DNA of 40,595 bases from an uncultured Flavobacteriales bacterium (GCA_963933205.1 CAWVTK010000001.1:1-40595), one strand, 5' to 3'; shown: positions 15,101 to 40,595, counted from the first letter of the stretch. Made by a program: numbers and translations. Notes: generated by a model from the letters alone, not told the origin.

Positions 15101-18007
15101 GCTGGGGCTTTATACAAAGGTGCTATGCACGATTTAAGAGTATGGAGTAAGGTAGCAGGCGATATACTAGCCAATCGTTCTATTAACTTGTCTGGAAAAG
15201 AAGCGAATTTAGTTGGATATTGGCCAATGGATGAGCTTAGGTCAAATCCAAAAGACAAGGCCAGATATAGACATGCACAAACATCTGCACAGTGGGCTGT
15301 AGAAAGTGAAAACAAAGCTCTGAAATTGGAGTACAATCCAGCTTTAATAGAAGACTTCTCGGCTCTTCAAGATTCTTCTACGCTCGCCATTGTAAATGGA
15401 AGTGACTTTACAGTAGAACTTTGGTTTAATACTGATGTTTCAAATAATCAAACCCTTTTATCTTTGGGCTCTTGGGATCTTGGAGATAAGTTTGAAACCT
15501 GGTCTTTTGACATAAACGCTGGAGCAATAGAAATTTTCCAAGGGGATACCATTTATGCACCGGTTTTAAATACCAACTCCACATACAACGATGGAGAATG
15601 GCATCATATGGCCCTGGTTAAAAATGCCCGCTCAAACACCAGACTTTATGTAGATGGTGTAGAAGTGGATCAGGTAGACTCAGAATTTGTGGGAGGTATT
15701 ACATCTTCTTCGACGTATTTAGGTCATCGAAGAATTGTGGATACAGAAACGGCTTCTGTCGGATACACAAACCATTATATGGGATTAATTGACGAGATAA
15801 GAATTTGGAATATCGCAAAGTCTCACGACAGAATATTGTCTGAGATGAACAGTAATATATCCGAAAAGCTTGGTTTGAGTCAGTCTACAGATTTCAATCA
15901 AATTCAAATGAACTCCGAGATCATTAATTCTTCCGAATTAGATGTTCCTTTAATTAGAGCCTCAGAACTTAAAACCTCGGTTTCTTTTCACGACGTTTCC
16001 AATGGAGATCAAATCTCTATTAATTTAACGGAGTCTTTAAGTAGAATTGAAAACACTTCAATTGATTTTACGCTTCAAAAAGTTAGAGATTTATCTGGTA
16101 ACCTGATTGAATCGCCTATTACATGGACTACTTACATAGACAAAAATCAATTGATTTGGGACAATGAGTTTATAGAAATGGAAAAATTACTTAGCGAGTC
16201 TCTTTCGTTCACAACCCACATAATCAATCAAGGTGGTACGGTAGAGAATTTCCAAATCAGTAATTTACCACCTTGGTTAAATGCATACCCTAGCGAAGGA
16301 TTGTTAGATCCAAATTCGTTTACTCAAATTGAGTTTGTTGTAAATGAAGATCTGTTTATTGGCGACTATAAGGAAGACATTTTACTGGTTGGAAACAATG
16401 ACTATGCTGAGCGTATGGAGTTCAATCTTAATGTTGAGATGGAACAACCTGAATATTCTGTTGATCAACAAGACTATGAATATGTAATGAACTTTGTAGG
16501 TAAGGTAACCGTAGAAGGAATTCGTTCTAGAGATGAGAAGGATATATTGTTTGCCTATGTAGGCGAGGAATTAAGAGGAGCAGCTAGTCCAATTTATATT
16601 GAAGAATACGACAGCTATTTAATTTTCCTTTCAGTTTACGGAGATCAAGTAAACGGCGAAGAAGTAAGCTTTAGATTATGGGATGCCAGCGCAGGTAAAT
16701 TCCAAACTAGAGTAAAAATTAATGGTCAGGATCTTCATGATTTCCAACCTAGTTTCGTTATTGGTTCATTTACAGAGCTTACGCGCTTTGAAGCGACCAA
16801 TATTTTAAGACAAGACATCGTTTTAAATGAAGGCTGGAATTGGGTGTCTTTTAACCTAAATTCTTTAGAGGAACAAGACGATTTAGACGATGTATTACAA
16901 GTTTCTACCGTTATGAATCAGGTAGATGGTTCATCCGTTTCTATATTCAAAAATCAATATGCCTTTACTCAATTTGCAGAAATTGATGGATACAATGATA
17001 CCTGGATTGGCTCTTTAACAGAACTTCCTATTACGGATATGTTCATGATTAAAACGCAAAAATCGGATACGATTATTTACGAAGGTAAAATTGTGAATCC
17101 ATCTGAGGTACCAATTGACGTAAGTGCTGGTTGGAACTGGATTAGCTACTTAGGACAAAGAATAATGAGTACGAATGATGCGCTTTCTAGTTTAAATCCT
17201 AGCTCGGGTGATGTAATAAAGAATAAAAGTGCTTTTAGTATGTACGCTTCGGAGAGTCTTGGATGGCTTGGTACTTTAAACAGTATGGAAAGTGGACATG
17301 GATATATGTTAAAAACCGAAAGTACCGGTTCTTTAATTTACCCCGAAAGTTCAATATTTAGAATTCGAGACTACCAACTTAGCAAGAATCAAATTTCCGA
17401 TGAACTTGTTGAAGTGAACAACGCTTTGTATCAAAACTCAATGAGTATGGTTGCGAAAATTGATTTGGAGAAATTTACTCAACCAGATCTTTCAAATGTT
17501 TTAGCCGCTTACAGCGATCAATTGTGTCTGGGTAATATTAATGCTACACAGATCAATGAAGAAGAATCCTTGTACTTCATCACCATTTATGGTGAAGACG
17601 GCTACAATGTTTCGTTTAAATACTTCGATCAGGTTAATGGCGACTCTTTTAATGCAGAAAACACCCTTGAGTTTGAAGCTAATAAATTGATTGGGTCCAT
17701 ACAAGATCCTTATCCGATTATATTAACCGAGAGCCCAGATGATTTTTTGATAGAGTATACTCTAGATGTATATCCAAATCCATTTAAAGAGGAGTTTGAG
17801 GTAGAATTCACACTTGACAATGATGAATTCATTTCTATTGACATCTTTGATGTAACAGGTAGAAAAGTGAAATCTTTATTCAATGGATTACTTAACTCAG
17901 GACTACACAATTTAGATATTGACGCTTCTGATATTGCCAAAGGAAGTTATTTCATTGAATTGAAATTAAACGATTCTAGTTTCAGAAAAATCATTATTAA
18001 ATCATAA
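6110..18007 (+). CDS. Giant (3965 aa) secreted surface protein with FN3-like modules, three LamG (concanavalin A-like) domains, modules B and C, and a type-A T9SS C-terminal sorting domain
   Basis: An uninterrupted 11.9 kb frame in AT-rich DNA. Signal peptide MNVSIFNKFLVFIAFFLFLSNTSFAQ. FN3-like stretches (for example IHLTWNNNSSGVIDHYSIERRQ...YEYRIKA). LamG hallmarks (FTVTFWMK...GVLFS...MDEMVLWRKVLSDEEI, FTIEMWLKP..., FTVELWFN...IDEIRIWNIAKS). The C-terminus is YPNPFKEEFEVEFTL...IDIFDVTGRKVKSLFNG...GSYFIELKLNDSSFRKIIIKS. Confidence 0.93.
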   Translation: MNVSIFNKFLVFIAFFLFLSNTSFAQFSPHNGDIGADESLEWLYDYNGSFKLGVISKNSGNNASAPIAIRISTLIVRDLPCVLGNCNDEPVYWNHVKNLHATNGQFSDLMYIEPTLPGAETTINGWQTLEKIETADGHSTITGSYECCPWYSTCYCPSYTTESRGYDFHVLGRSGEEFKNVTSTINNNYVTVSFDWYDFPENWINSVAQFTVGPQQFQRFIPVDFGTEIAAVTEAVVTDNDVTLVGESSLVSCATDNDHSEKWYAVSQDIYQDTNFHEVDLGDWSDDFSLPILTAENSENIGPNVSFDYKLYYREFGKGCAMQRVFEPEEITTSNLNSIDRIIALNEDDGTVKVLWSHLTSVDKSDVSYIVKRTDDPNLDLEDWRTVYKFEQGVPSINYTLNNGQNVTNGVVDPNDEVNPLGESFSEKGLAGQFIDHTADPEGTYKYSIQAKVITEYVNTNYIQQMESTGAGISFFDDNNQLNIVTPTPLCSGFEIQGVQSIINEEIKFGNEDYEYDNQDHILSFNSPDFFGTQGVSQRVYFYENSELTVPLINPETEEAIIIDGSVSEISGYELPLEDDVFSRTVYGIIEATRTDGKVFRSFKPRVIVGNRKPVPPTVNISSATFEDYVTLRFTNVKEEHNIDHIKIYRTARTPSTSTAPTDSTTYSENFVLDSLILTKEDLQDLIVEAGELVFKDIPDSDNSFSGESTVLCNEYAYQIQSSNCENWSLNDSPFYVEVKGNTKQVTPTLDQDVFELGNPLKDLTSSKGEFPDKIHLTWNNNSSGVIDHYSIERRQYGSEGENAWIQLGSVSTGEKYFQDTYAEANLLYEYRIKAHVGNCETSSPEDPGTQANMVSTHQVGYRRPVGRITGRITYNQTSNPVSDVYVKVEPIINEDQTTNRSLNLESNYGIVRSPIKSDSDLDAFTVTFWMKSMADQQGVLFSRKSTLYDMSLYLDGNAIGYSEYSGSLNETYPAYNLKPEENSWNNVTLTFTTLEDEKQVKFYINGLLMNTYSSQFTPSVFDDFIFGVDRNLNAESSFDGLMDEMVLWRKVLSDEEIQSNYFKFLKTSDDDLIFFIAADEGLGAFSYDISSNTIDVFNKNHLELNSLSLTDTFSIPNHANHFYNDNYNTELLNLDKSTSSGMYDVTNIRYINDGNNFSITPFTILNETYSVIHEFLPAQRTDFIGDQSLLLSAIDFNDLTAITVQGNVFFDVTEENSDVSLIDKTEYQIGVEDVFVKVGGKRIQNDDGEVKTDADGFFSMSIPIGEQCISFEKNGHTFYYGDLEGERDDRYCQEFNFNSEQNLPNFSCNTYKELRGRITGGQMYDSQTIADIQIGFNQSANTIGSVGFDLMPNAASVLDYEGYLVSVQTNVLTGEYHAKLLPIVHKVNSSSWISSNYDVENSYRNQQQLFPTIDMEVKGDNDVNGDFVEEQLSSSIGELASQTITFNKRFDLVYRSNPSILVSQNIAGELAWSTSIGETSIEIDEGFSITTSDSTGYLLGMPVFKEKYGNGTYRYNIEVSEVYTNYGAINSTHDHNSYMYKDQNGASVHDTKQYLNPLQQGDVSIFNTMMKSSTEMMSLSDLNGSVDYEFNPDDPYVFGKEQGYMRKFIIQYQDGSVNAQWPKLSAGQNASTRGDVYAFGDESYGNDFFTFGPQTVDMILRDPSGDGSYSSITEGSTITRTSSVTNVNGYTKDWNFSVGAGLEIGGAIGFSLGAHVETKWSAKAFVTAGMTNSASLTNSSENQITISETYNHTISTNSADWEVGAKGDLYIGESKNLNFGTSKELQFLSTHNCALGGGVFDCLDYPLIKQNKTIRKQYEIDDVTNDTVISILQASALYELSSIPVSNSESIISDSTYSSNGKTYIIHDIEEVGSYQIGTQTAVSIKPGVSTKFAFSNNYIQNYLLTKLALIKNTYLFGEYTVDTDLLPIDHECFGEPSNSTCFDSYEDQSIRNYYTIPETSTEEYYVLPNLTNYDVNTLTAILGSTYQEFQSNFEDADHYIGYSVSNSAINNDEWNSPLISLQSETAGFGFSISEGVTPELVQYLNFVNTGPLFGTGLDIEIDAYLNLNGNSPDPVTAYDNVGAEGSIGDGEASGSISNGVTTVGGSVGSSSEDGVNTVSASGDYSNGVVNAGISVDISIDDDPTNDSYGNEEQLSDLLLNFASVQDFTSVPGFINLNNLIDDLTLDVPEESETIVIPRDKVQFYAQQIKLWKRAMANNELDKIESEFLTNHSISAGVSIEQSHTSVGAYSNTNSITYDLSSTNALGGDFSGHLAVIGFNAGFSYNNKYTLEFKTTTNLSGQSVTTTNYKLSDNDQGDIISIDVNESNYGFGPIFKVQAGATSCPWENVVNAKYIRDFDLYFELKFYDEFVKTGLAMPSQLTLNSNTFDFTFYGSLAENELNVKKASYVDYSRTTALPIKSVFDQKRLDVYNAVKESLLNQHTSMFGSDAPYELSAKTSQRDKPTLDVFPPVLYNVNENEQAAFTLTLGNASEDNSNRMYKIRVIEAENPHGAILKIDGINPNREFTVPAGGSVTKTLTVAKGPDSLNYENLQIIIYPGCQYDWGTSDEYDIADTISFSTYFLPTCTDIVIHDTDDDWLVNNADTNLLTLKLEDYNINYYSLRDVYFDYKFENEPWTPIEPQSNVVNPHFVINNLENFKTFSPLDLYNLLHSDFNLSSVVNTDLYNQLEPKEKCRGGNCAIYNATGLNVHEDWIAWKAVDADTTEYIQGEISRLKTTYLSSEEAVSDNEMLSLRMASTNVLWEVPMVPKDGNYKIRAKSNCGFYTSQTSSQQEEIAVYSLTHDVFSDRIRPELFGSIQPTDGILNPNDDVIVTFNEPINEIAFNTSSAQTYVEVMARKNRTAHTHDSYLYFGSDDSLNIPSGVYLNNSFTIEMWLKPESNGVLFEQSNGTDSEVIKLSVVDFDTDPKLQFEYIHPTDETKNQMVNHSMELPSTGFTHLALAYDAVDHQIIFLDGTGSVATPSYSFNMNYVGDGPIIAGALYKGAMHDLRVWSKVAGDILANRSINLSGKEANLVGYWPMDELRSNPKDKARYRHAQTSAQWAVESENKALKLEYNPALIEDFSALQDSSTLAIVNGSDFTVELWFNTDVSNNQTLLSLGSWDLGDKFETWSFDINAGAIEIFQGDTIYAPVLNTNSTYNDGEWHHMALVKNARSNTRLYVDGVEVDQVDSEFVGGITSSSTYLGHRRIVDTETASVGYTNHYMGLIDEIRIWNIAKSHDRILSEMNSNISEKLGLSQSTDFNQIQMNSEIINSSELDVPLIRASELKTSVSFHDVSNGDQISINLTESLSRIENTSIDFTLQKVRDLSGNLIESPITWTTYIDKNQLIWDNEFIEMEKLLSESLSFTTHIINQGGTVENFQISNLPPWLNAYPSEGLLDPNSFTQIEFVVNEDLFIGDYKEDILLVGNNDYAERMEFNLNVEMEQPEYSVDQQDYEYVMNFVGKVTVEGIRSRDEKDILFAYVGEELRGAASPIYIEEYDSYLIFLSVYGDQVNGEEVSFRLWDASAGKFQTRVKINGQDLHDFQPSFVIGSFTELTRFEATNILRQDIVLNEGWNWVSFNLNSLEEQDDLDDVLQVSTVMNQVDGSSVSIFKNQYAFTQFAEIDGYNDTWIGSLTELPITDMFMIKTQKSDTIIYEGKIVNPSEVPIDVSAGWNWISYLGQRIMSTNDALSSLNPSSGDVIKNKSAFSMYASESLGWLGTLNSMESGHGYMLKTESTGSLIYPESSIFRIRDYQLSKNQISDELVEVNNALYQNSMSMVAKIDLEKFTQPDLSNVLAAYSDQLCLGNINATQINEEESLYFITIYGEDGYNVSFKYFDQVNGDSFNAENTLEFEANKLIGSIQDPYPIILTESPDDFLIEYTLDVYPNPFKEEFEVEFTLDNDEFISIDIFDVTGRKVKSLFNGLLNSGLHNLDIDASDIAKGSYFIELKLNDSSFRKIIIKS
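8807..9305 (+). other. LamG / concanavalin A-like lectin domain 1
   Basis: NRSLNLESNYGIV...AFTVTFWMKSMADQQGVLFS...WNNVTLTF...KFYINGLL...FDGLMDEMVLWRKVLSDEEIQSNY. This is the typical LamG_3 pattern: a candidate sequence, then FT.E.W.., then .DE.R.W...LS..EI. Confidence 0.7.
14714..15235 (+). other. LamG / concanavalin A-like lectin domain 2
   Basis: YLYFGSDDSLNIPSGVYLNNSFTIEMWLKPESNGVLFEQ...FTHLALAYD...GAMHDLRVWSKV...LVGYWPMDE. Confidence 0.7.
15317..15868 (+). other. LamG / concanavalin A-like lectin domain 3
   Basis: ALKLEYNPALIED...GSDFTVELWFNTDVSNNQTLLSLG...GEWHHMALVKNARSNTRLYVDGVEV...MGLIDEIRIWNIAKSHDRILSEM. Confidence 0.7.
16475..17721 (+). other. B-C-C-B module block immediately before the sorting domain of the 3965-aa protein
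   Basis: B-like segments at 16475-16798 (YVMNFVGKVTVEG..DILFAYVGEELRGAAS..LIFLSVYGDQVNGEEVSFRLWD) and 17435-17721 (NSMSMVAKIDL..VLAAYSDQLCLGN..YFITIYGEDGYNVSFKYFD). Divergent C-like segments at 16829-17089 (EGWNWVSFNL...WIGSLTEL...MFMIKT) and 17123-17350 (AGWNWISYLG...GDVIKNKSAF...WLGTLNSMESGHGYMLKT). Confidence 0.55.
17756..18004 (+). other. Type-A T9SS C-terminal sorting domain (Por secretion tail)
   Basis: YTLDVYPNPFKEEFEVEFTLDNDEFISIDIFDVTGRKVKSLFNGLLNSGLHNLDIDASDIAKGSYFIELKLNDSSFRKIIIKS matches the familiar YPNP...(I/V)xIxDxxGRxV...G.Y(F/L)...K(I/L)(I/V)K pattern. Confidence 0.85.
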
Positions 18008-24000: not shown

Positions 24001-27000
24001 GACCCCTAACTATTTAGATAGAGGTACATCAAACGACCTGTACTATTGGACGGAAGCCTATAGCTTTGGTTCTTATAGAGCCTCTAATTATTTGGACTAT
24101 TCGGAAATTACTTGTGGTTGTACAAATCCTACAGCGTTAAATTACAATGCTCTGGCAACAGAAAACGACAACAGTTGTGCTATAGAAGGCTGTATGGATC
24201 CTTACAACGATTTATTCAATCCGATCGCAAACATATCCGGTTCTTGTGATCTTATAGTACCTGGTTGTGTTTACGATTGGGCTTATAATTTTGATGTTAG
24301 CGCCAATCTAGACGATAATTCATGTATTCCGTTCATTTTTGGATGTGTTAATGATAATTATTACGACAACGATACAACGGCAAATACGGACGATGGATCT
24401 TGTGAACTTTTAATTGTACCTGGCTGTACAGATTCGACCTTTATCGAATACTGGATATACTCGCCATCATTATTGTCTGTTACTTTACCTAATCAAATTT
24501 CAAATCTTGAAGACAGTACTTGTTTAACTCCAATCTTATTGGGTTGTACAAATACTAACTTTTTTGAATTCGATGCAAATACAAACGTAAAAGACGATTC
24601 CTTATGTATAACACCAAGATCATTTGGTTGTATAGATCCAATTTACTTGGAGTTTGACCCCTCGGCAAATACAACCAATGAAACCTGTGAAATTCTAAGA
24701 GTAGATGGCTGTACCGATTCACTTTATTTAGAGTTTGATACCCTAGCTAACTACAACGATGGATCTTGTACAACACTTATTGTTATAGGTTGTATGGACG
24801 ATGATTTTACGGAGTTCAACACAATCAACTCTGTATCTGATTCAAGTACTTGTATAACTCCAGTCGTATTTGGATGTATCGACGACATGTTTGTAGAATT
24901 TAGCGCCTTGGCAAATACAGACAACGGTACTTGCTACACCTATTTGGTAGTTGGTTGTGGAAATCCTTCCGCTTTGAACTATGTTTTAGGGGTAACAAAC
25001 AATGACAACTCCCTATGTGTCTTTGAGGAAACATACGGTTGTACCGATGTTCTTGCATTCAATTACGATGCTCTTGCAGACCTAGAGGACGGTACTTGTA
25101 TAGAAATCGTTTTAGGTTGTATGTATGAAGATGCATTCAATTTTGATGTAGAGGCCAATACAGACGATGGCTCCTGTGTTCTTGTCTATACAGGATGTTT
25201 AGATTCTACGATGTTCAATTACAACCCGATTGTAAATACAGACGATGGCTCTTGTTACCCAATTGTAGAAGGATGTATGGATCCAATCATGTTTAACTTC
25301 GACTCTTTGGCAAACACACATAACTATTCTTGTATTCCTGTTGTAGTAGGATGTATTTTAGCCGAGATGTTTAATTACGATGAAGAAGCGAACACCAGTG
25401 ATAACTCTTGTGTTCCAATAATTCTTGGATGTATGGATGATTTGTACGTTGAGTATAGCGACCAAGTAAATACGGACAATGCTACTTGTAGTATTATAGC
25501 GGTAGAAGGATGTACAGACATTACATACCTTGAGTACAACGAACTCTCAAATACCAACGATGGTTCTTGTGTTGTTTTGAAGATTAATGGTTGTACCGAC
25601 GAATTGTTTGTAGAATTTGATGCAACAGCAAACTTCGACAACGGCTCTTGTAATGTTCTTATGATTCTTGGATGTACGGATGCTACGATGCTTAATTTCG
25701 ACGAGAATGCCAACGTAGACGATGCGTCTTGCTATATGTTAGTAGAAGGTTGTATAGACTCAGCTTACTTTGAATACAATAGTTTGGCGAATTTTGACGA
25801 CCAAACGTGTTCGGTTCTTATTATTGAAGGCTGTATGGATGAAAATTATATTGAATACAATTCAGAAGCGAATCAAGACGATGATTCGTGTATCGATACG
25901 ATATTTTTTGGATGTTTGGATAACTTGTATGTAGAATACAATGCACAAGCAAATAGCACTGATAATTCATGTGAAGTACTGGTTGTTTTAGGTTGTACAG
26001 ACCCAACTATGTACAATTACTTTGAATTTGCAAATACGGACAACGGTTCTTGTTTCAGCTTATCTGACTTTACACTAAACCCTCAAGACTATCAATTCAA
26101 TATGTCAATAACAGCACAAATTGAGTATTCTCAAGGGCTGTTTTCAACCAATCTAAACGATTCGATTATTTTAATAAGTTCTGTTACTGGTCAAGTAAGC
26201 GGATTTGCGAATATGGAATTGGTTCCCTTCGGAGTAAACAGTTACTATGCCTTTATTACAGCATATTCAAACCATCTGTCCGACGAATTAATTGTTTACG
26301 TAACTTCTTCTTATCTCGAAAGCAATTCTGCAATTGTTGATACTTTGAATTTTATTCCTAACTCAATGCTTGGATCTATTTCCAGTCCATGGGTGTTCTC
26401 ATTAGACAATTCTTCTGGGAATTATGGATGTACGAATCCAAATGCATCAAATTACAATAGCGATGCCTTGATCAATGATGGCTCCTGTATAATTCTAGGT
26501 TGTTCAAATCCGAGTTTCATCGAATACAGTTCTGAAGTAACACATGACAATGGTTCTTGTAGCTCGAGCTGGCAGTCGGCTTACGATTCTCAATTAATTG
26601 AGATTAACGCCATAAACAACTCGCTTTTAGAAGCCAATTCGACCATATCCGATCTTGAAGATTCCTTGGTGAATACTCTAGAAAATGGAAATTCAAATCT
26701 AATTTTGATCGAGTCCTTACAATTGCAAATAATCAATTTAGAATATTCTGGTGGTACAGAATCTTCTTTAGTGGATTATTTCTTAGACCTCCCAGAAGGT
26801 TGGAGTTTCTTCGGATTCAACTGCTACGATTCTATCGATTTAAGTGTTGCATTTGATGGGATAGCTGATAAGGTTACTATTATAAAAGATCAATACGGAT
26901 CGATATTTCTTCCAGAATATAATTTTAATGGTATTGGAGATTTAGTTTATGCTGAAGGATACCAGATTAAAACAGTAGAAGAAATTACAGGATTCCAATT

Positions 27001-27028
27001 TTGTAAAGTATTAATTTCTGAGGAGTAA
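18020..27028 (+). CDS. Giant (3002 aa) secreted Cys-repeat protein: about 53 two-Cys repeats, 4-5 DSYGDGW modules, TSP3-like loops, one LNR-like unit, module B and a C-terminal module C. No recognisable T9SS sorting domain.
   Basis: An uninterrupted 9.0 kb frame starting 12 nt after the stop of the previous gene. Signal peptide MKTLNKFLISFLVLSMGIINSSIIKAQ. The repeats fit GC(T/M)Dxx(A)xN(Y/F)(N/D)xxAxxDDGSC. The protein ends in LPEGWSFFGFNCYDS...IIKDQYGSIFLPEYNFNGIGDLVYAEGYQIKTVEEITGFQFCKVLISEE. Confidence 0.93.
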   Translation: MKTLNKFLISFLVLSMGIINSSIIKAQDTDECGIVGGSGYFYSYIDSDGDGIGEGDPIESCTDLSLNFCGPLSFTLGNYPEEVSYTILDENGNEIESGSIDGKPELCLPFGNYTLQMVDSFGDGWDGNILMYNGNEYTLEESLSILEVPFMVSNTEDNTNMYVSLGGDSDLFGCTEPSASNYNAMAMEDDGSCEFGDSSFGCTELSASNYNAMATEDDGSCEFDEAKFGCTDSTASNYDALATEEDGSCDFESFIFGCTDSFASNYNAMATEEDGSCEFESFIFGCTDSFASNYNAMATEEDGSCEFEILIYGCTNPNATNYDLLATIDDGYCELNADFGCMEDWADNYNADATSQLPDEFQNDTILYSDVITGSTSEAYFYVDEYSNTLQIYGYNIASENNLIRTCIEGENPYDCFSAFQTMQSHSSMDTVLMSYPQEIVDCFSYNDFYSCENALEYYSLEMSEYLNILDADSTLIQNCLQGDGESCISAVSDLNDYATEVQNCFQYGYDCEIAVSDYSSQMADYFDYDSALIPTVSASVNILQDGTYSFSLFTTGNYDTQNTFDRNFENQGFYILNSDTTFFNLLEEFYTDTISASAGSVLTFGMSGLQMGEMSVEPLIQSINLGSPTCFKAGCMFDWADNFNESVTLDDGSCSKSGCTADWSDNFDPEATTDDGTCSRLGCMEDWADNFDALATIDNASCFIFGCMEEWADNYNPSATADITGDINLSNMNTAVYPISSDGSVEVTNNSFIINGINEGNGLSNGSSQSLTISIVNSGTYSFNWQHTDYDTDGAFYAVNFEASTLVDFYNNEEITVLASNGTGDYQTGGNAFSNTEVWNGTVEIYLSAGDNITFGVLGEDLCCGNGVLSVENFTLLETENGSCFKNGCTVSTSCNYDATATIDDGSCGTSLTLTSNQSEYYCSDFSWSLSTDNSELIEDGNCAESLEVCLSEGDYVLNANNSNDSEWWPSWTYVQISEIDSASTFNDSGTYDQDEITINFTVRYGCTDIQAKNFSASATVQDGSCFYGSCTDSEACNYDATATEDDGTCTYITNECQSCEFVHNHFELIQNDDDLDGICNEDDIAGCTNVLACNYDPTATDDDNSCIETDHCSDCLLASSGWAIDNDADGDGICNDQEVAGCTEAGACNFESTATDNDQSCIYSLEGYDCDGLCEVGLPLTFGGGSWITEASFNIVDCNNNSLIASSGIALETCVDLPDNYTIYLFDSYGDGWTDNQLIIGDSIYDLFTGDLDTLDYGCFVDGCIDSLACNYDVSSTVNDGSCTYPETGLNCLGSCLDLNTNEVCDSLEVAGCLNELACNFDETSEEATLNDESLCEYPEGALNCDGNCEDGLVYTLEMFDSYGDGWNENSISINNDLYTLESGSEATVSLCLDSATCNSITFNTGWYLTEVSWSIKDEDNAYVVDALDQTLNNQGVYFSSSLGSQYEGLVYTSYFGACDLIQGCTNENAFNYNAEATEDDGTCQSNITGCTDDQADNYNELATTDDTSCNYSGCSIQFALNYNPSVNIEDGSCIIAVYGCMDAQADNYNPLANKSNDACSYSGECQYEQLVVSMYDTYGDGWNGNSLSIGSQTVTLEHDSETFTTFYGSDTVCVDLTYCNTVTVNGGAWQNEISWSIESLSYEALLYGDAPYSDTLGACDNGIVGCSDMVASNYDANATSDGDCTYDSNWDDTEKLGCNDPLATNYNPGAEAFSAASCIYYGCTNIFASNYSTSATIDDGTCLSDNCGIGFVEDCDGSGDCHPISWLGDGELDCADQQFGADLSCHNNDGGDCGPIDEFVLGCTNPLSSNYNPLATLDNNSCDGDIPGCMNAVACNYNQTANTDDNSCVFAPEGMDCDGLSAYEINQFGLFSNTDYLIKEGLCGLESNILAANDFYVTGVDYGEITTQDGMYFSFEHVSSTTEQSPILFGDTVYLKTNDLYLSSNTNLVSLNADLSKAIKIVVSPKIEAYLQIQLTNFDKFNIVGLFGENETPNYLDRGTSNDLYYWTEAYSFGSYRASNYLDYSEITCGCTNPTALNYNALATENDNSCAIEGCMDPYNDLFNPIANISGSCDLIVPGCVYDWAYNFDVSANLDDNSCIPFIFGCVNDNYYDNDTTANTDDGSCELLIVPGCTDSTFIEYWIYSPSLLSVTLPNQISNLEDSTCLTPILLGCTNTNFFEFDANTNVKDDSLCITPRSFGCIDPIYLEFDPSANTTNETCEILRVDGCTDSLYLEFDTLANYNDGSCTTLIVIGCMDDDFTEFNTINSVSDSSTCITPVVFGCIDDMFVEFSALANTDNGTCYTYLVVGCGNPSALNYVLGVTNNDNSLCVFEETYGCTDVLAFNYDALADLEDGTCIEIVLGCMYEDAFNFDVEANTDDGSCVLVYTGCLDSTMFNYNPIVNTDDGSCYPIVEGCMDPIMFNFDSLANTHNYSCIPVVVGCILAEMFNYDEEANTSDNSCVPIILGCMDDLYVEYSDQVNTDNATCSIIAVEGCTDITYLEYNELSNTNDGSCVVLKINGCTDELFVEFDATANFDNGSCNVLMILGCTDATMLNFDENANVDDASCYMLVEGCIDSAYFEYNSLANFDDQTCSVLIIEGCMDENYIEYNSEANQDDDSCIDTIFFGCLDNLYVEYNAQANSTDNSCEVLVVLGCTDPTMYNYFEFANTDNGSCFSLSDFTLNPQDYQFNMSITAQIEYSQGLFSTNLNDSIILISSVTGQVSGFANMELVPFGVNSYYAFITAYSNHLSDELIVYVTSSYLESNSAIVDTLNFIPNSMLGSISSPWVFSLDNSSGNYGCTNPNASNYNSDALINDGSCIILGCSNPSFIEYSSEVTHDNGSCSSSWQSAYDSQLIEINAINNSLLEANSTISDLEDSLVNTLENGNSNLILIESLQLQIINLEYSGGTESSLVDYFLDLPEGWSFFGFNCYDSIDLSVAFDGIADKVTIIKDQYGSIFLPEYNFNGIGDLVYAEGYQIKTVEEITGFQFCKVLISEE
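18536..18955 (+). repeat. Five in-frame tandem 84-bp (28 aa) repeats; the last two are nearly identical
   Basis: Units start at 18536, 18620, 18704, 18788 and 18872 (GCTEPSASNYNAMAMEDDGSCEFGDSSF and so on). By my alignment, units 4 and 5 differ at 1 of the first 69 nt and at 6 of 84 nt overall. Unit 3 shares its 3-prime tail (gaatctttcatcttt) with unit 4. Degenerate units continue to about 19090. Confidence 0.9.
19922..20185 (+). repeat. In-frame tandem 72-bp (24 aa) DW-type variant of the two-Cys repeat: 3 full units plus 1 truncated
   Basis: GCMFDWADNFNESVTLDDGSCSKS / GCTADWSDNFDPEATTDDGTCSRL / GCMEDWADNFDALATIDNASCFIF / GCMEEWADNYNPSATAD.... Units start at 19922, 19994, 20066 and 20138. 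Confidence 0.85.
23267..23409 (+). other. LNR (Lin-12/Notch repeat)-like Cys/Asp knot
   Basis: CGIGFVEDCDGSGDCHPISWLGDGELDCADQQFGADLSCHNNDGGDCG. Compare my recollection of the LNR consensus, C...C...(F/W).(N/D)G.CD..C....C.(W/F)DGGDC. Confidence 0.5.
24116..26053 (+). repeat. Uninterrupted array of 24 two-Cys repeats (mean about 27 aa), mostly the E(F/Y)-type variant
   Basis: Hand count from GCTNPTALNYNALATENDNSC to GCTDPTMYNYFEFANTDNGSC gives 646 aa in 24 units. A typical unit is GCTDSLYLEFDTLANYNDGSCTTLIVI. The units have diverged at the DNA level, so this is not a recent expansion. Confidence 0.85.
26789..27004 (+). other. Module C (GW..FG..NFNGIGDL..GYQIK), C-terminal copy
   Basis: LPEGWSFFGFNCYDSIDLSVAFDGIADKVTIIKDQYGSIFLPEYNFNGIGDLVYAEGYQIKTVEEITGFQFC. 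It is preceded by a short helical, heptad-like linker (SSWQSAYDSQLIEINAINNSLLEANSTISDLEDSL...). Confidence 0.7.
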
Positions 27029-28087: not shown

Positions 28088-28164
28088 TGAATTTTATTTT
28101 AGTATTAAAATTAGTACTTTTGGTTAATATTTATTTTTTTGTAGAATTAAACCCCCTTCACCAG

Positions 28165-33916: not shown

Positions 33917-34648
33917 ATGAAGAAGTTTTTATTTTCTTTAAGCTTATTGACGTGTTGTAGTCTTTTTGCTCAAACAGCAAATCTAAGTCCTTACCAGCAG
34001 AAAACTATGAATACGGAACGCTTTGCGCGTCCTGTTAATACAGGTTTAAACCACACACTACTTATATTGGGTTCTGCTTGGGAGATTTCTCCAGAAATTG
34101 GCGACGAGATTGCTGTATACGATTCAGAAAACAACATGGTTGCTTCTGTTGCTTGGAGTCCTGAGCAAGAAGGACATGCAGCCTTAGCAATTTGGGGAGA
34201 CGACGAAATGACGTCTGCCAAAGAAGGAATGAATAAAGCAGAGCGTTTTAGAATCGTTTTGTTTGATAAGTCGGAAGATTCCATGACTCAATTGAAAGTA
34301 AATCGTTGGGAGAGAGGACAAGATGTTTTTATAAAAGACGGGGTAAGTGTAGTTGGTTCTATAGAATTTGACAGAGCAATCACCCAAGATTTAGAGTTGT
34401 TTCAAAATGTACCCAATCCAGTAATAGACAATACAAGTATTAGTTTTTTTTTACCAACAGCTGGGAAAGTAAAAGTAACAGTATCTAATACCATGGGACA
34501 GGAAGTTATGGTTTTGGCTAATAAGGAATATGTTAGAGGAGTACATAATTTACAAATGAATGCTTCTAGCCTTGCAACCGGAGTGTATCTTTATAAGCTT
34601 GAAGCGAATGGTGCTTTTATTACCAAGCAGTTAACCTTAATTAAATAA
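33917..34648 (+). CDS. Small secreted protein: module B plus a type-A T9SS C-terminal sorting domain
   Basis: 243 aa. Signal peptide MKKFLFSLSLLTCCSLFAQ. Module B is NTGLNHTLLILGSAWEISPEIGDEIAVYDSENNMVASVAWSP..ALAIWGDDEMTSAKEGM..FRIVLFDKSEDS. The sorting domain (about 34391-34645) is LFQNVPNPVIDNTSISFFLPTAGKVKVTVSNTMGQEVMVL...GVYLYKLEANGAFITKQLTLIK. Confidence 0.88.
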   Translation: MKKFLFSLSLLTCCSLFAQTANLSPYQQKTMNTERFARPVNTGLNHTLLILGSAWEISPEIGDEIAVYDSENNMVASVAWSPEQEGHAALAIWGDDEMTSAKEGMNKAERFRIVLFDKSEDSMTQLKVNRWERGQDVFIKDGVSVVGSIEFDRAITQDLELFQNVPNPVIDNTSISFFLPTAGKVKVTVSNTMGQEVMVLANKEYVRGVHNLQMNASSLATGVYLYKLEANGAFITKQLTLIK

Positions 34649-34664: not shown

Positions 34665-37643
34665 ATGAAATCCTATACAAATAAATTTACAGCCCTACTA
34701 GCCATTGTATTCACGGTTTGCTGTTCGCCAGTTTTTTCTCAAACAGGTTGTACAAACCCTACAGCTTTTAATTACAATCCATTTTCTATTACAGACGACG
34801 ACACTTGCGAATTTGAACAGAGCGAAGGCAATCCATTAAGTGGAACTTGGGGGTTTAATTCTCCAGACATGGTTTCTGATAGTACCCAAGGATTGTACAT
34901 CGGTTTCATTAATTTTTATGATGCCTACTATGTTGTTTTTACCCCTCAAGGATCAGAATTAGGGTCTTATCAAGTTAACGATACCGTAGTGTATATAAAC
35001 TCAGATTATGACAGTACTGGAGACACAATTTCGTTTTCTGGTCATTATGGCTTAAATGGCTCTGATCCAATATTATGGGAACCTCTTCTAGAATGGCAAT
35101 GCATCGATTGTGATGGCTTAAACCTTGAAGATGCTATTTCTATTGAAGGTCAAAATACAGCCATTAACATGCCTGGTATTTGCTACGACTTTACAAGCAA
35201 CCTCACATCATTTACTTCAGAAGAAGACTGTAGTTCTTTATGGAACGAATTTGTTGTTGACGCTTACGAAATTACATTTGACCTAGATATTATGACATTG
35301 ATGAACGACAAGGAAACTCTAATTTTGACATCAGTTGAAACGGTATTCGGTTGTTTAATTGATGGTAATCCTCAATTCAATGCATTAGCTAACACAAACG
35401 ATTCGAGTTGTTCAGAAGGATGTTTTGACGAAGCTGCTTGTAACTTTGGAGAGGAAGCTTCTTGTTATTACCCAGAGGGATATTGCGATTGTGAAGGTGA
35501 ATTGCCAAACTATTCGAATGTAAGTTTTGATGTTTCTATGGATGGTTATGAATTCCTTACAGACTCTTTGGATGTTTTTATTGTGGCTAGTTGGCTCGAT
35601 GCAGAAACAAGTTTCCAAGTAGACTTGAACCGTAACGGTAATGAATGGCTTTACACAGGAGACTTGAACGGTACTCCTGGCAGCTCATTCTCCTATTTTG
35701 TGTCTGTAAATGGTCAATTATACGGTCAATGTGATGGAACTCCATACGCTACAAGCTTTAATACTCTTATCCCAGACAGTTCATGCTGGGTTAATATCAA
35801 CACCAATTTTATTGCTCCCTTTATGTGTAATGTTTTAGAGGGCTGTATGGATTTAAATGCTACTAATTACAACGAAATGGCCACTCAACAACAGTTTGAC
35901 CAATACGGTAATTTAACCTGTATTTATTCTTCTTGTGATGATGTACCTTTTTCGGGATGTGTTTACGCTGATGGTTTTGGTCCCTTTAATTCTGAGTTTC
36001 AAGCCGAGGCATGTGTATCTTACGGCGGAAACCCGTGTGATGTAAGTGTGAATGGTTGTACAGATGCTACAGCTCAAAACTTCGATATGTTTGCAAATGT
36101 GGACGATGGTACTTGTTTTTATTGTCAAAATCCAATATACTTTAATGTTCAACCGGACACATCAATTACAGATAATGTATCTGGTGTCTTGCAAAATGAG
36201 AATGATTTTATGACTTACTTTGGGCTTGGTGCAATAGATCTTTGTTTTGATTCGGGTTGTTTCTCAATTACGATGTACACCGATTTTCCTGGAGGTTTCG
36301 AAAATACAACCTTAGTGGTAACTGATAAAAACCAGGATTTAATTGTGCAACATATCTTTGGCGCTTCTAATTCGGAAACAATCAATTTTACCATTGGACA
36401 AAGCGAATGTAACCTCGGATGTACCTCTATCTTTGCGCTAAACTACAATGAAGATGCTGAGGTAAACGATGGCTCATGTGAGTTTGAAGGGAATTGTGCA
36501 AACTCAGAATTGTTAGATTGCAATGGTAACTGTGCACCCATGATTTGGTATGCTGATGGATTCTGCGACAATAATGAATTTGAATTTGGAAGCAACCCAA
36601 TCGATTTTACGTGTTTCGATAACGACGGTGGCGACTGTGACACCTCGAGTGTTGTTGTTGTTGGATGTATGGATTCTGCTGCTTCTAACTTTATGCCAGA
36701 AGCACTCGAAGACGATGGTTCTTGCGAATACCTTAGTACAGAACTAATTGAAGCCTACCAAACCATAGCAGATTTAGAAGCTGCTTTACAACAAGCCGAG
36801 TTTGATAATTGTACTACTACAGAAGTATACATTCCTTTAACCTTACCTCAAGGATGGGGTATGTTTGGATACAGCTGTATGGAGCCCATGAATGTAGTCG
36901 AAGCCTTTTCTAGTGTGGTTAATCAATTGATTATTGTAAAAGACAATTACGGGAATCCTTACCTTCCAGAATTTAACTTTGACGGTCTTGGAGATTTGCA
37001 TTATTCGCACGGTTATCAAATAAAAGTTACCGAAGAAATTACGGATTTATCTTTCTGTTCTATTATCGTAAATTCAGAAAACTCGAATGGCAACGAAATC
37101 TTTGGTTGTATGGACAATACTGCACTAAACTTTGATCCGCTGGCTAATCTAGACAATGGCTTATGCCAGTATGTAAATTCAAATTCGTTTAATTTGCCTT
37201 TGGACTTTGAAGGCGAATATTACGAGTTTGTAGATTTCGATGGTACTAGTACATTTGTTATACAGAACCCGAATCCTACAGACGTGAACCCAAGTGAAAA
37301 TGTAGTGCGACATATAAGACATGGTGGTGAACTTTGGGCTGGAACTTACATTGTTACCAATCCAATAAACTTTAGCTCTAGTATTTTTAAAATGAAAATT
37401 CAAGCTCCAGCTGCAAACATACCTGTACTAATGAAACTTGAAAATGCCAATACGGGCGAATTTGTAGAGCTTATTGTAAATACGACTCTAGCCAACCAAT
37501 GGGAAGAATTAACTTTTGACTTTGGAACTCCGCTTCAAAACAACTTGTATACGCAAGTAGTAGTAATATTTAATATAGGTGTAGTGGGCGATGGTTCAGA
37601 AAACTCAACGTATTACTTCGACGACATTATTAATGTAAATTAA
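34665..37643 (+). CDS. Secreted 992-aa Cys-repeat protein: about 8 two-Cys repeats, an LNR-like unit, an internal module C and a C-terminal CBM-like beta-sandwich. No T9SS sorting domain.
   Basis: Starts 16 nt after the previous stop. Signal peptide MKSYTNKFTALLAIVFTVCCSPVFSQ. Repeats include GCTNPTAFNYNPFSITDDDTC, GCTDATAQNFDMFANVDDGTC, GCTSIFALNYNEDAEVNDGSC, GCMDSAASNFMPEALEDDGSC and GCMDNTALNFDPLANLDNGLC. Ends ...STYYFDDIINVN. Confidence 0.88.
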   Translation: MKSYTNKFTALLAIVFTVCCSPVFSQTGCTNPTAFNYNPFSITDDDTCEFEQSEGNPLSGTWGFNSPDMVSDSTQGLYIGFINFYDAYYVVFTPQGSELGSYQVNDTVVYINSDYDSTGDTISFSGHYGLNGSDPILWEPLLEWQCIDCDGLNLEDAISIEGQNTAINMPGICYDFTSNLTSFTSEEDCSSLWNEFVVDAYEITFDLDIMTLMNDKETLILTSVETVFGCLIDGNPQFNALANTNDSSCSEGCFDEAACNFGEEASCYYPEGYCDCEGELPNYSNVSFDVSMDGYEFLTDSLDVFIVASWLDAETSFQVDLNRNGNEWLYTGDLNGTPGSSFSYFVSVNGQLYGQCDGTPYATSFNTLIPDSSCWVNINTNFIAPFMCNVLEGCMDLNATNYNEMATQQQFDQYGNLTCIYSSCDDVPFSGCVYADGFGPFNSEFQAEACVSYGGNPCDVSVNGCTDATAQNFDMFANVDDGTCFYCQNPIYFNVQPDTSITDNVSGVLQNENDFMTYFGLGAIDLCFDSGCFSITMYTDFPGGFENTTLVVTDKNQDLIVQHIFGASNSETINFTIGQSECNLGCTSIFALNYNEDAEVNDGSCEFEGNCANSELLDCNGNCAPMIWYADGFCDNNEFEFGSNPIDFTCFDNDGGDCDTSSVVVVGCMDSAASNFMPEALEDDGSCEYLSTELIEAYQTIADLEAALQQAEFDNCTTTEVYIPLTLPQGWGMFGYSCMEPMNVVEAFSSVVNQLIIVKDNYGNPYLPEFNFDGLGDLHYSHGYQIKVTEEITDLSFCSIIVNSENSNGNEIFGCMDNTALNFDPLANLDNGLCQYVNSNSFNLPLDFEGEYYEFVDFDGTSTFVIQNPNPTDVNPSENVVRHIRHGGELWAGTYIVTNPINFSSSIFKMKIQAPAANIPVLMKLENANTGEFVELIVNTTLANQWEELTFDFGTPLQNNLYTQVVVIFNIGVVGDGSENSTYYFDDIINVN
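36495..36641 (+). other. LNR (Lin-12/Notch repeat)-like Cys/Asp knot, second copy in the locus
   Basis: CANSELLDCNGNCAPMIWYADGFCDNNEFEFGSNPIDFTCFDNDGGDCD. It shares W.(G/A)DG..(D)C...and C.(N/D)NDGGDC with the copy at 23267-23409. Confidence 0.5.
36843..37058 (+). other. Module C, internal copy
   Basis: LPQGWGMFGYSCMEPMNVVEAFSSVVNQLIIVKDNYGNPYLPEFNFDGLGDLHYSHGYQIKVTEEITDLSFC. It is preceded by the helical linker LSTELIEAYQTIADLEAALQQAEFD. Confidence 0.7.
37188..37640 (+). other. C-terminal carbohydrate-binding-module-like beta-sandwich
   Basis: FNLPLDFEGEYYEFVDFDGTSTFVIQNPNP..NPSENVVRH...WAGTYI...FKMKIQAP..IPVLMKLEN......WEELTFDFG...YTQVVVIFN.G..GDGS..STYYFDDI. I recall this LPLDFE...W.G...KLE...W.E..FDF...YYFDDI pattern from glycan-binding accessory domains next to flavobacterial glycoside hydrolases. 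I have no family number for it. Confidence 0.45.
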
Positions 37644-37821: not shown

Positions 37822-37913
37822 ACATAAGCCAATGTAGAGCTGAAATAACAACAAACATCTCTGACATAGTAATGTAAGCGTATCTTGTACTAGTTTAATT
37901 TTATTTATTTTTC

Positions 37914-39752: not shown

Positions 39753-40007
39753 TGTTTTTATAGGCTTTTTAACAATTATACACGATTCGTGAGTTCATTT
39801 TTTTTTGCTTCAAATTTCGGCTGTCACCTAATTTGTGTGTTATTATTTTTACAATGCTTAAGATGTTATTGTATGTCAGTACTTTAATGTAAAAGTTACA
39901 CACAATACTATCTTAACATCTATTTACAAGACTTGGTTTTATAATAGTATGTAATAACTAATATTACATCATTAGTTATGTTACTCATATGGGGATGGGA
40001 GTACTAA

Positions 40008-40109
40008 ATGAATTTCTATAAATCAAATTCATTTATTGTTATCGCACATTTGTTGAATTTTGGGCTTTTGCTCGAATATTTTAAGCGTAATAATTTTCTA
40101 ATCATTTAA
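40008..40109 (+). CDS. Possible 33-aa hydrophobic small ORF immediately upstream of an orphan terminator. Speculative.
   Basis: My translation is MNFYKSNSFIVIAHLLNFGLLLEYFKRNNFLII*. The stop (40107-40109) is followed by TAATCCCGGGGGGATTC and the terminator at 40124. Confidence 0.15.
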   Translation: MNFYKSNSFIVIAHLLNFGLLLEYFKRNNFLII

Positions 40110-40123
40110 TCCCGGGGGGATTC

Positions 40124-40161
40124 AAAGAAGCCGCTTTTTAGTGGCTTCTTTATTTTTGTTT
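40124..40161 (+). terminator. Intrinsic terminator with no annotated gene directly upstream (372 nt after the LuxR-type stop)
   Basis: AAAGAAGCCGC (40124-40134) pairs with GTGGCTTCTTT (40141-40151), including one G-T wobble, around the 6-nt loop TTTTTA. ATTTTTGTTT follows. Confidence 0.7.
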
Positions 40162-40316
40162 ACTCTAGAATTGCTCTGTTTCTTTTTCAATCTAATCGGT
40201 TTTATTAAATTCAAACCTACTCATTGCTCTCTTTTTAGCTCTATTAATGTCCCCGTTATTTATTCTAAATGTTGTAGTCAATTGTTTATATTTACAAAAA
40301 TTAGTCCTCTCAGCTT

Positions 40317-40595
40317 ATGAATAAATTACTATTCGCTTTTTCTTTTGTTTTCTTAGCTTCGGTAAAGCCGAACTCTTCCGCGCAAAACTTTCCTGTAGAA
40401 CTTCCACAAGGATGGAGTATGTTTGGTTATACCTGTCTAGAGTCTGTAGATGTTATCGATGCTTTTTCCGATGTTTCCCAAAGTATTATCATCGTTAAAG
40501 ATCATCTAGGTAATGCCTATCTTCCAAATTGGGCATTTAATGGTATTGGCGAACTAGAGTTTGCTAAAGGATATCAAATTAAATTGTCAGAACCT
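40317..40595 (+). CDS. Secreted family member, N-terminal part only: signal peptide followed directly by module C
   Basis: Absent from the ORF track because it runs off the window. My translation is MNKLLFAFSFVFLASVKPNSSAQNFPVELPQGWSMFGYTCLESVDVIDAFSDVSQSIIIVKDHLGNAYLPNWAFNGIGELEFAKGYQIKLSEP, 93 codons open to the window end. Confidence 0.8.
   Translation, partial: MNKLLFAFSFVFLASVKPNSSAQNFPVELPQGWSMFGYTCLESVDVIDAFSDVSQSIIIVKDHLGNAYLPNWAFNGIGELEFAKGYQIKLSEP

What the first reader, a model, noticed from the sequence alone, without database searches (positions are those of the whole stretch)
16829..40595. Module C (GW..FG..NFNGIGDL..GYQIK) is position-independent and may be a protein-protein docking unit
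Seen in the sequence: four close copies share YLP(E/S/N)(Y/F/W)(N/A)F(N/D)G(I/L)G(D/N/E)L....GYQIK and an N-terminal (L)P(E/Q)GW(S/G)(F/M)FG(F/Y).
- 26789-27004: C-terminal
- 27869-28084: C-terminal
- 36843-37058: internal
- about 40386-40595: directly after the signal peptide

Two divergent tandem copies lie just before the T9SS tail of the 3965-aa protein (16829-17350). In three proteins the module follows a short helical linker that begins right after the last Cys of a repeat (GSCSSSWQSAYD..., GSCATSWKAAYLD..., GSCEYLSTELIEAYQ...).

Inference, by analogy with cohesin-dockerin logic: C modules on tail-less proteins could bind the C (or B) modules of the anchored giant protein to assemble a multi-protein surface complex.
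Basis: inference. Interest (0 to 1): 0.6.

Follow-up and report, generated by a model that had tools for sequence, protein, structure and literature searches.

The report
Unnamed surface-attachment module of secreted proteins
Module C is a real, very common but still unnamed protein domain that an abundant group of uncultured marine Flavobacteriales puts at the end of dozens of secreted enzymes, often in place of the usual type IX secretion tail, and gene-fusion and gene-neighbour patterns suggest (without proving) that it hooks these proteins onto a small tail-bearing anchor protein.

Summary
All four close copies and the two divergent copies are in frame at the stated coordinates.

The module is far bigger than the window shows:
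- about 60 copies in about 40 secreted proteins of this 2-Mb genome;
- 19-64 copies in every genome of the same family;
- about 9,900 protein clusters in public data.

It has no Pfam, NCBIfam or PDB match. AlphaFold predicts it confidently, and Foldseek finds no similar fold in the PDB.

"Position-independent" is true only for the window's single "s-type" copies. The dominant form is a fixed tandem pair, predicted to be one rigid unit. The pair sits in a conserved cassette: W domain, C, C, W domain, type IX secretion (T9SS) tail.

About half of the carriers end exactly after the pair and have no tail. These are hydrolases with ordinary signal peptides.

A small stand-alone W-plus-tail protein (window 33917-34648) is conserved across the family. 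It lies next to s-type carriers in four genera.

A docking or surface-retention role is therefore the best reading (about 0.4). The likely partner is this W-tail anchor, or a second C module, not the giant protein's own pair. Binding is untested. Ligand binding remains a serious rival.

The parts
26780..27007 (+). s-type module C at the C-terminus of the 3002-aa protein (18020-27028), after a linker of about 75 aa rich in L, E, N and S
   Evidence: Profile hit i-E 3.1e-25; translations
27857..28084 (+). s-type module C at the C-terminus of the 334-aa protein (27083-28087)
   Evidence: i-E 1.4e-27. AlphaFold2 model of this copy has pLDDT 96.7 and pTM 0.85
36834..37061 (+). s-type module C, internal in the 992-aa protein (34665-37643). 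A Cys repeat and an unassigned C-terminal region follow it
   Evidence: i-E 6e-29; translation
40392..40595 (+). s-type module C directly after the signal peptide of an ORF (40317-) cut by the contig end; it continues on contig C211
   Evidence: i-E 1.5e-29; overlap with C211 seen
16811..17080 (+). First (a-position) divergent copy in the 3965-aa T9SS cargo protein
   Evidence: Marginal alone (i-E 3.5; 8e-4 in the small database). Modelled confidently as part of the pair, apart from a lower-confidence insertion
17111..17344 (+). Second (b-position) divergent copy in the 3965-aa protein
   Evidence: i-E 3.4e-5. Same order of secondary-structure elements as the canonical module
16451..16795 (+). 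W-family domain immediately before the giant protein's C-C pair
   Evidence: jackhmmer hit; hhalign against the marine W profile gives 96.5% probability, E 8e-10
17411..17710 (+). W-family domain between the C-C pair and the T9SS tail of the giant protein
17768..17998 (+). Type A T9SS C-terminal sorting domain of the giant protein
   Evidence: PF18962 at E 1e-12
33917..34648 (+). Stand-alone small protein: signal peptide, W' domain (34001-34411) and type A T9SS CTD (34412-34633). It lies directly upstream of the 992-aa C-bearing protein and is the candidate anchor or partner
   Evidence: PF18962. Orthologues at 44-75% identity in most genomes of the family. Synteny with s-type carriers
27155..27460 (+). 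W-family domain at the N-terminus of the 334-aa protein
   Evidence: jackhmmer i-E 8e-30
26069..26398 (+). W-family domain in the 3002-aa protein, upstream of the last Cys repeats, the linker and module C
   Evidence: jackhmmer i-E 3.7e-16

Best explanation
**What it is.** Module C is a member of a large, unannotated extracellular domain family of Bacteroidota. It is 75-90 aa long, with mixed strands and helices.

**Basic unit.** The ancestral unit is a tandem a-b pair that folds into one rigid body. The pair sits in a conserved C-terminal cassette of T9SS cargo proteins: W domain, C, C, W domain, T9SS tail.

**What happened in this lineage.** In this family of small-genome marine Flavobacteriales the cassette was hugely expanded and taken apart.
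- About half of the carriers, mostly hydrolases with ordinary Sec signal peptides, stop right after the pair and have no tail.
- A derived single-copy form, the s-type, sits next to helical linkers at variable positions. All four window copies are s-type.
- The W-plus-tail part also exists as a small stand-alone protein (33917-34648).

**Proposed mechanism (inferred).** C acts as a surface-attachment or docking unit. It completes the cassette in trans by binding the W domain of the T9SS-anchored small protein. In s-type proteins it may also pair with a second C module. Tail-less enzymes and adhesins would thereby be retained at the cell surface, and perhaps exported with their partner.

**Shown here:** the domain, its census, its architectures, the rigid-pair prediction, the fusion/fission pattern and the synteny.

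**Inferred:** the binding itself, the identity of the partner, and where the proteins end up.
For: **1. Census**
- 58 full copies in about 40 ORFs of the own genome.
- 19-64 copies in all 17 genomes of the family, but in only 2 of 14 sister families.
- 9,936 clusters at E <= 1e-3 in 1.84 billion proteins.

**2. Rigid pair.** AlphaFold2 models the giant protein's pair at pLDDT 94.4 and pTM 0.89. The single module scores 96.7 and 0.85.

**3. Conserved cassette.**
- W, C, C, W and CTD occur together on many passenger types across Bacteroidota.
- In the own genome, several pair carriers have W immediately before the pair, and W' follows it in all tail-bearing ones.
- The giant-type W and the marine W are homologous (hhalign 96.5%).

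**4. Three outcomes at one boundary.** Among the 150 best representatives:
- 72 end within 16 aa of the last copy, most with the stereotyped ...Y-x-S-N-x-x-x-Y stop;
- 29 continue with about 171-200 aa ending in the 42-aa short-tail motif, which matches W' plus short tail in the own genome;
- 36 continue with about 201-245 aa, matching W' plus a type A CTD.

The junctions are shown.

**5. Tail-less carriers look extracellular.**
- Their passengers include M43 and M14 peptidases, SASA esterase, a PETase-like hydrolase, endonuclease I, LVIVD and LRR.
- They have type I signal peptides.
- None of them carries any of the 68 PF18962 matches.
- The SprA translocon is present in the genome.

**6. Rosetta-stone pattern and synteny.**
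- The stand-alone W'-CTD protein is conserved at 62-75% identity across genera.
- It lies next to an s-type carrier in 8 of 13 loci examined, over four genera.
- In one genus the gene order is cupredoxin-C, then W'-CTD, then trypsin-...-C.
- The same passenger types (trypsin, cupredoxin) also occur fused to the full cassette.

**7. Boundary motif kept.** The mature N-terminus of W'-CTD keeps an x-L-S-x-Y-Q motif. It resembles the L-S-N-x-x-S-Y-(R) that ends the b copy.

**8. Phage use.** C pairs occur in a protein encoded among tail-fibre and endolysin genes of a phage-like contig. That fits a binding role.
Against: - No interaction was predicted or measured. No multimer prediction was available.
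- Synteny loci are orthologous, not independent. C-bearing genes also cluster in surface-protein islands, as in this window, which inflates adjacency.
- Most tail-less a-b carriers are not next to any W-CTD gene.
- Only about 3 stand-alone W-CTD genes per genome would have to serve about 25 cargoes.
- A second W-CTD orthogroup lies between a LysM gene and an OMP-like gene, with no C carrier nearby.
- How a CTD-less protein would cross the outer membrane is unknown.
- Fission of a domain boundary can also occur without continued interaction.
Confidence: 0.4

Rival explanations
1. Module C, as a pair or single, is a ligand-binding or adhesion module comparable to a carbohydrate-binding module. 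It would target many different exo-enzymes and adhesins to a common substrate, such as algal or particle polysaccharide, or the cell's own surface glycan or LPS. No protein partner would be needed.
For: - It is appended C-terminally to many unrelated hydrolases, as carbohydrate-binding modules are.
- It is reused in a phage tail-fibre-like protein.
- The motif block YLPEWNFNGIGDL..G.GYQIK is strongly conserved and rich in aromatic residues.
- It is present in giant adhesin-like T9SS cargo across Bacteroidota.
Against: - No similarity to any known binding module. Pfam and NCBIfam give nothing. PDB profile searches give nothing or only spurious hits. Foldseek's best scores are TM 0.53 for the single module and below 0.2 for the pair.
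- It does not explain how tail-less carriers leave the periplasm.
- It does not explain the fixed place between two W domains.
- It does not explain the conserved neighbourhood with a stand-alone W-CTD gene.
Confidence: 0.25
2. The W-C-C-W cassette is a structural stalk, or a folding and export helper that precedes the T9SS tail. This would resemble the Ig-like domain that precedes the CTD in gingipains. Tail-less versions would be periplasmic or vesicle-released proteins that merely kept part of the stalk.
For: - The pair always lies between passenger and tail, as a rigid unit.
- The cassette is the same whatever the passenger.
Against: - Tail-less proteins end precisely at the module boundary in 72 of 150 representatives.
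- The module looks well conserved across otherwise unrelated carriers, which is unexpected for a leftover spacer.
- The s-type moves to N-terminal and internal positions.
- No remnants of W or CTD lie downstream of tail-less genes at E <= 1e-8.
Confidence: 0.15
3. The C-terminal a-b pair is itself a new class of outer-membrane sorting signal, recognised by the T9SS or one of its shuttle proteins.
For: - It takes the extreme C-terminal place that a CTD holds in other Flavobacteriales exo-enzymes.
- The terminus is stereotyped and ends in Tyr.
- The lineage also has a second unusual 42-aa tail.
Against: - In about 40% of carriers the pair is internal and followed by W plus a recognised CTD, which would make two signals.
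- s-type copies occur at the N-terminus and internally.
- It shows no similarity to type A or type B CTDs.
Confidence: 0.1
4. One reading: C modules of tail-less proteins bind the C (or Cys-repeat) modules of the anchored 3965-aa giant protein.
For: - The giant protein, the 3002-aa protein and the 334-aa protein are adjacent on the same strand.
- The pair prediction shows that C modules can pack against each other.
Against: - The giant protein's two copies are predicted to satisfy each other within the chain (pTM 0.89).
- They belong to the distant, phylum-wide subtype, at 21-25% identity to the s-type copies.
- Sampled genomes outside this family mostly carry only 1-2 pair matches, typically in large proteins (at most 11 candidates scored per genome). 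Whether those genomes hold tail-less carriers was not checked.
Confidence: 0.07

Closest known systems
Cohesin-dockerin system of cellulosomes (type I/II dockerins; Pfam Dockerin_1 and Cohesin)
   Same: Proposed logic only. A small module shared by many unrelated secreted enzymes would attach them to an anchored partner, and one anchor would serve many cargoes.
   Different: - No sequence match to dockerin or cohesin families in Pfam or NCBIfam scans.
- No paired DxDxDG calcium loops visible in the module consensus.
- The predicted structure has mixed strands and helices, not an EF-hand pair.
- The candidate receptor (W domain) has no Pfam or PDB sequence match, so whether it is cohesin-like is unknown.
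- The organism is Gram-negative and uses the T9SS.
- No binding has been shown.
Type A T9SS C-terminal sorting domain (PF18962 / TIGR04183)
   Same: It occupies the C-terminal end of secreted Bacteroidota proteins, and it stands where a CTD would be in about half of the carriers.
   Different: - No profile match.
- It co-occurs with a genuine CTD in the same polypeptide.
- It comes as a pair.
- s-type copies occur at the N-terminus and internally.
Pre-CTD Ig-like domains of gingipains and other T9SS cargo (recalled from the literature, not tested here)
   Same: A conserved non-catalytic unit lies between the passenger and the CTD.
   Different: - The predicted fold differs, with no Ig-like matches in Foldseek.
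- It also exists without any CTD and as a stand-alone single copy.
Carbohydrate-binding modules appended to marine exo-enzymes
   Same: It is modular, C-terminal, shared by many hydrolases and sometimes duplicated.
   Different: - No match to any CBM family model.
- Foldseek TM-scores to CBM structures are at most 0.30.
- Its place in a W-C-C-W cassette is fixed.

Membership tests
Dockerin (Pfam Dockerin_1; NCBIfam dockerin models) | Profile match, with a duplicated 22-residue calcium-binding loop-helix carrying DxDxDG-type motifs | tested here: not met
   No dockerin family among hits at E <= 1 in Pfam or NCBIfam for five module-bearing window proteins. The module consensus shows no such motif. 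The AlphaFold2 model is mainly strands with two short helices.
Type A T9SS CTD (PF18962 / TIGR04183) | Profile match at the extreme C-terminus | tested here: not met
   The module regions give no PF18962 or TIGR04183 hit. None of the 68 PF18962 matches in the genome falls on a module. The genuine CTD of the giant protein lies 420 nt downstream of its pair.
Type B T9SS CTD (PF13585 CHU_C / TIGR04131) | Profile match at the C-terminus | tested here: not met
   No hit in the module-bearing proteins. CHU_C appears only as a weak overlap on the type A CTD of the small protein.
Known carbohydrate-binding modules | Profile match to a CBM family, or clear fold similarity to a solved CBM | tested here: not met
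   No Pfam hit. Foldseek against the PDB gives CBM_E1 (5kle) at TM 0.30 and 4aem at TM 0.23, both at E > 1. Ligand binding itself is not testable with these tools.
NHL repeat / beta-propeller blade | Significant per-repeat profile match and a propeller-blade fold | tested here: not met
   The module profile hits designed 'Pizza' propellers and PknD only through summed weak matches. Each stretch has i-E above 300 and covers positions 35-64 only. The model is a self-contained domain, and no propeller structures appear among the listed top 50 Foldseek hits.
HPr-like open-faced sandwich | Significant structural match | tested here: inconclusive
The unnamed Bacteroidota 'W-C-C-W-CTD' cassette family defined here | Two tandem modules with GW(N/S)x(I/F)(G/S)...(I/V)K...G.GY..K, flanked by W domains and lying upstream of a T9SS tail | tested here: met
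   The giant protein has all five parts. The window's s-type copies are single-module derivatives of the same family: the marine profile aligns over its full length to the phylum-wide copies, and the joint alignment is A2.

The most novel reading that the evidence does not exclude
A split type IX display cassette. CTD-less enzymes and adhesins would fold in the periplasm and dock through module C onto the W domain of a small, conserved W-CTD protein. Docking would use either an a-b pair or two s-type copies brought together by coiled coils. The cargo would then be carried through the T9SS translocon with that partner (piggy-back secretion) and displayed on the cell surface. One lipid-anchored hub would thus serve dozens of cargoes in an abundant group of marine Flavobacteriales.
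Probability: 0.2. Interest if true: 0.85.

Novelty: new variant of a known kind. Interest (0 to 1): 0.6.

Why it matters
T9SS cargo is defined by its C-terminal sorting domain. Here an abundant, uncultured marine lineage has dozens of exo-enzymes per 2-Mb genome that lack that domain. They end instead in one conserved, structurally unmatched module.

That module family has about 10,000 sequence clusters and no entry in Pfam, NCBIfam or the PDB.

If the module docks cargo to a tail-bearing partner, three things follow:
- It would show a new way of building the Bacteroidota cell surface, and possibly of exporting proteins.
- It would change how secretomes of marine Flavobacteriales are predicted from genomes.
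- It would offer a compact attachment pair for surface display.

Even if it turns out to be a ligand-binding module, naming and solving it would annotate thousands of "hypothetical" marine proteins.

Tried and rejected
**Searches that found nothing**
- Pfam and NCBIfam scans of module-bearing proteins from the window, of phylum-wide homologues and of 18 own-genome carriers. No family covers the module or the W domain.
- PDB sequence-profile searches:
  - the single module gave only spurious summed NHL/'Pizza' hits;
  - the pair gave nothing;
  - the W domain gave nothing.
- Foldseek against the PDB, for the single module and for the pair, found nothing at E <= 0.001.
- Foldseek against viral models gave one hit: an 'uncultured marine phage' protein annotated as hemin-binding (E 8e-4, TMq 0.54). 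I could not retrieve it, so I did not rely on it.
- Two literature searches found no description of this module or of piggy-back T9SS export.

**Ideas rejected**
- C and W are not related to each other (hhalign probability 0.3%).
- Tail-less proteins do not look like decaying pseudogenes. No W or CTD remnants lie downstream at E <= 1e-8, and their endings are stereotyped in many metagenomes.

**Left open**
- Whether the 42-aa short tail is a truncated type A CTD. hhalign aligns only 22 columns, at 35% probability.

**Failed or unavailable**

Full report
**1. Setting**

The window is a whole 40.6-kb contig of a 2.03-Mb, 233-contig assembly (88% complete) of an uncultured marine Flavobacteriales bacterium. 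The closest named record is "MAG: Flavobacteriales bacterium".

The + strand carries a row of secreted-protein genes:

| Coordinates | Protein |
|---|---|
| 6110-18007 | 3965 aa, with a type A T9SS tail |
| 18020-27028 | 3002 aa |
| 27083-28087 | 334 aa |
| 28084-30294 | fasciclin protein |
| 33917-34648 | 243 aa, with a T9SS tail |
| 34665-37643 | 992 aa |
| 40317- | ORF cut by the contig end |

The genome has the SprA translocon and 68 matches to the type A sorting domain.

**2.

They are 37-56% identical pairwise.
- The cut ORF continues on contig C211, which overlaps the window's last bases. The N-terminal position directly after the signal peptide is therefore real.
- The two divergent copies in the giant protein are only 21-25% identical to the others.
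  - A profile of 58 own-genome copies finds the protein at E 1.1e-7. The second copy is solid (i-E 3.4e-5) and the first is marginal.
  - AlphaFold2 models the pair at pLDDT 94.4. The second copy has the same order of secondary-structure elements as the canonical module, and the first broadly matches.
- They are separated from the T9SS tail by a further domain of about 100 aa.

**3. The module is far bigger than the window shows**

- A profile of the four copies finds about 60 copies in about 40 ORFs of this genome.
- All 17 genomes of the same family have 19-64 copies. Only 2 of 14 sister families in the order have any.
- In 1.84 billion representative proteins, 9,936 clusters match at E <= 1e-3 and 1,630 at E <= 1e-30.
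- Sources are marine metagenomes, and names are "hypothetical protein".
- No Pfam or NCBIfam model covers it.
- No PDB sequence matches. The only profile hits are summed sub-threshold NHL-like matches.
- The single module is predicted with pLDDT 96.7 and pTM 0.85.
- Foldseek finds nothing significant in the PDB. The best match for the single module is HPr at TM 0.53 and E about 1. The pair finds nothing above TM 0.2.

**4. Architecture: position is not free**

- Most copies form a tandem pair near the C-terminus.
- In a tree of the 58 copies:
  - first-position (a) copies form a clade, with support 99/97;
  - single (s) copies form another clade, with support 99/93;
  - second-position (b) copies are basal.
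- Position labels need only 4 changes on the tree, against 27.7 when shuffled.
- All four window copies are s-type. Only this clade moves about:
  - C-terminal in roughly eight proteins;
  - followed by a 42-aa short tail in five;
  - internal in one;
  - N-terminal in two.
- s-type copies sit next to linkers rich in L, E, N and S.
- The giant protein's pair is predicted as one rigid body (pTM 0.89 for 184 residues).

**5. The cassette**

- Homologues of the giant protein's pair occur across Bacteroidota on many passenger types. Examples are laminin-G, PKD, BspA-type LRR, M14 and C10 peptidases.
- The pair is flanked on both sides by a domain I call W, and a type A tail follows. W is marked by NTG.N.T and WGDD..T..DG in the marine form.
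- The giant-type and marine W domains are homologous (hhalign 96.5%, E 8e-10).
- W has no Pfam or PDB match either.
- In a sample of 301 genomes of the phylum, 34 have the pair. Most have one or two matches, typically in large ORFs (at most 11 candidates scored per genome).
- In the own genome, W lies immediately before the pair in several carriers, and W' follows it in all tail-bearing ones.

**6. Three outcomes at one boundary**

Among the 150 best representatives:
- 72 end within 16 residues of the last copy, most at ...Y-x-S-N-x-x-x-Y;
- 29 continue for about 171-200 residues and end in the short-tail motif (W' plus short tail in own-genome examples);
- 36 continue for about 201-245 residues (W' plus a type A CTD in own-genome examples).

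The own genome shows the same pattern.

The tail-less carriers have these properties:
- Their passengers are M43 and M14 peptidases, a SASA esterase, a PETase-like hydrolase, endonuclease I, and LVIVD, DUF285, DUF3105, Reeler and LRR proteins.
- Nearly all complete carriers start with an ordinary signal peptide.
- No W or CTD remnants lie downstream of them at E <= 1e-8.

So the module stands where other Flavobacteriales exo-enzymes carry their sorting domain.

**7. Link to a stand-alone W-tail protein**

- The 243-aa protein at 33917-34648 consists of a signal peptide, W' and a type A CTD.
- Its closest orthogroup is conserved at 62-75% identity across genera of the family.
- In 8 of 13 such loci, over four genera, it lies next to an s-type carrier.
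- In one genus the order is conserved: cupredoxin-C, then W'-CTD, then trypsin-...-C.
- Trypsin and cupredoxin passengers also occur fused to the full cassette.
- Two single-C proteins plus one W'-CTD protein add up to the parts of the fused C-C-W'-CTD unit.
- The mature N-terminus of W'-CTD keeps an x-L-S-x-Y-Q motif like the one that ends the b copy.
- A second, more distant W'-CTD orthogroup is flanked by LysM and OMP-like genes and shows no such link.

**8. Other hints**

Two related proteins carrying C pairs look phage-like. The one whose context was read is encoded among tail-protein, tail-fibre and endolysin genes of a phage-like contig. This fits a binding role but does not say what is bound.

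**9. Reading**

- The pattern of fusion, fission and conserved neighbourhood favours a role in surface attachment by completing the cassette in trans (confidence about 0.4).
- It does not show binding.
- A ligand-binding module (0.25), a stalk or export helper (0.15) and a new sorting signal (0.1) remain open.

**10. Limits**

- No multimer prediction tool was available.
- The synteny loci are orthologous rather than independent.
- Earlier notes of this scan describe the same cassette and similar "docking tail instead of CTD" ideas in other genomes. I used them as leads only.

Noticed in passing
window 40317-40595, continued on own-genome contig C211:2-814: The window's last ORF continues on contig C211, which overlaps the window's last bases (about 54 nt). 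The full protein reads: signal peptide, s-type C, an alanine/leucine/glutamate-rich linker, Kazal-like Cys motifs, then an unassigned domain of about 130 aa.
   Followed up: partly
window 30160-30294 (end of the fasciclin protein 28084-30294), plus 16 further own-genome proteins: A 42-aa C-terminal 'short tail' (consensus LVKV(I/V)(N/D)VLG(Q/R)EV...KG..LF.IY.DG.VEK) ends 17 proteins of the genome, with or without module C. It aligns to the central strand motif of the type A T9SS CTD over only 22 columns (hhalign 35%). It may be a lineage-specific truncated sorting signal.
   Followed up: partly
window 3-2171 (- strand), 16451-16795, 17411-17710, 26069-26398, 27155-27460, 34001-34411: The W domain (NTG.N.T ... 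WGDD..T..DG in the marine form) is itself an unannotated family. It has about 50 copies in this genome, three of them in the ORF at the left end of the window. It has no Pfam or PDB sequence match.
   Followed up: partly
L008 and L009 (relatives G007 and G013); L007 is cut: A conserved three-gene cluster: a cupredoxin-like protein ending in s-type C, then a W'-CTD protein, then a trypsin-family protease of about 1,100 aa with a His-rich stretch and a C-terminal s-type C.
   Followed up: partly
L042:10001-12211 (protein P0291): A 736-aa protein with module C pairs and repeated SGTNIKTVNGESLLGEGNI motifs lies in a phage-like contig. Its neighbours include an endolysin and a tail protein / tail fibre gene.
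   Followed up: partly
L015-L021 (relatives) and own-genome contig C51:10626-11396: A second orthogroup of the small W'-CTD protein is always flanked by a LysM-domain protein and an OMP-like protein of about 540 aa ending in an aromatic residue. No module C is nearby.
   Followed up: no
window 27083 and 28084: The TTG starts listed mechanically for the 334-aa and fasciclin ORFs are probably not the true starts. The fasciclin protein has a typical signal peptide starting at an internal Met (MKKLVIFCAIISLFSSTSLFAQ). A 99%-identical database protein of the 334-aa ORF is 320 aa long.
   Followed up: no
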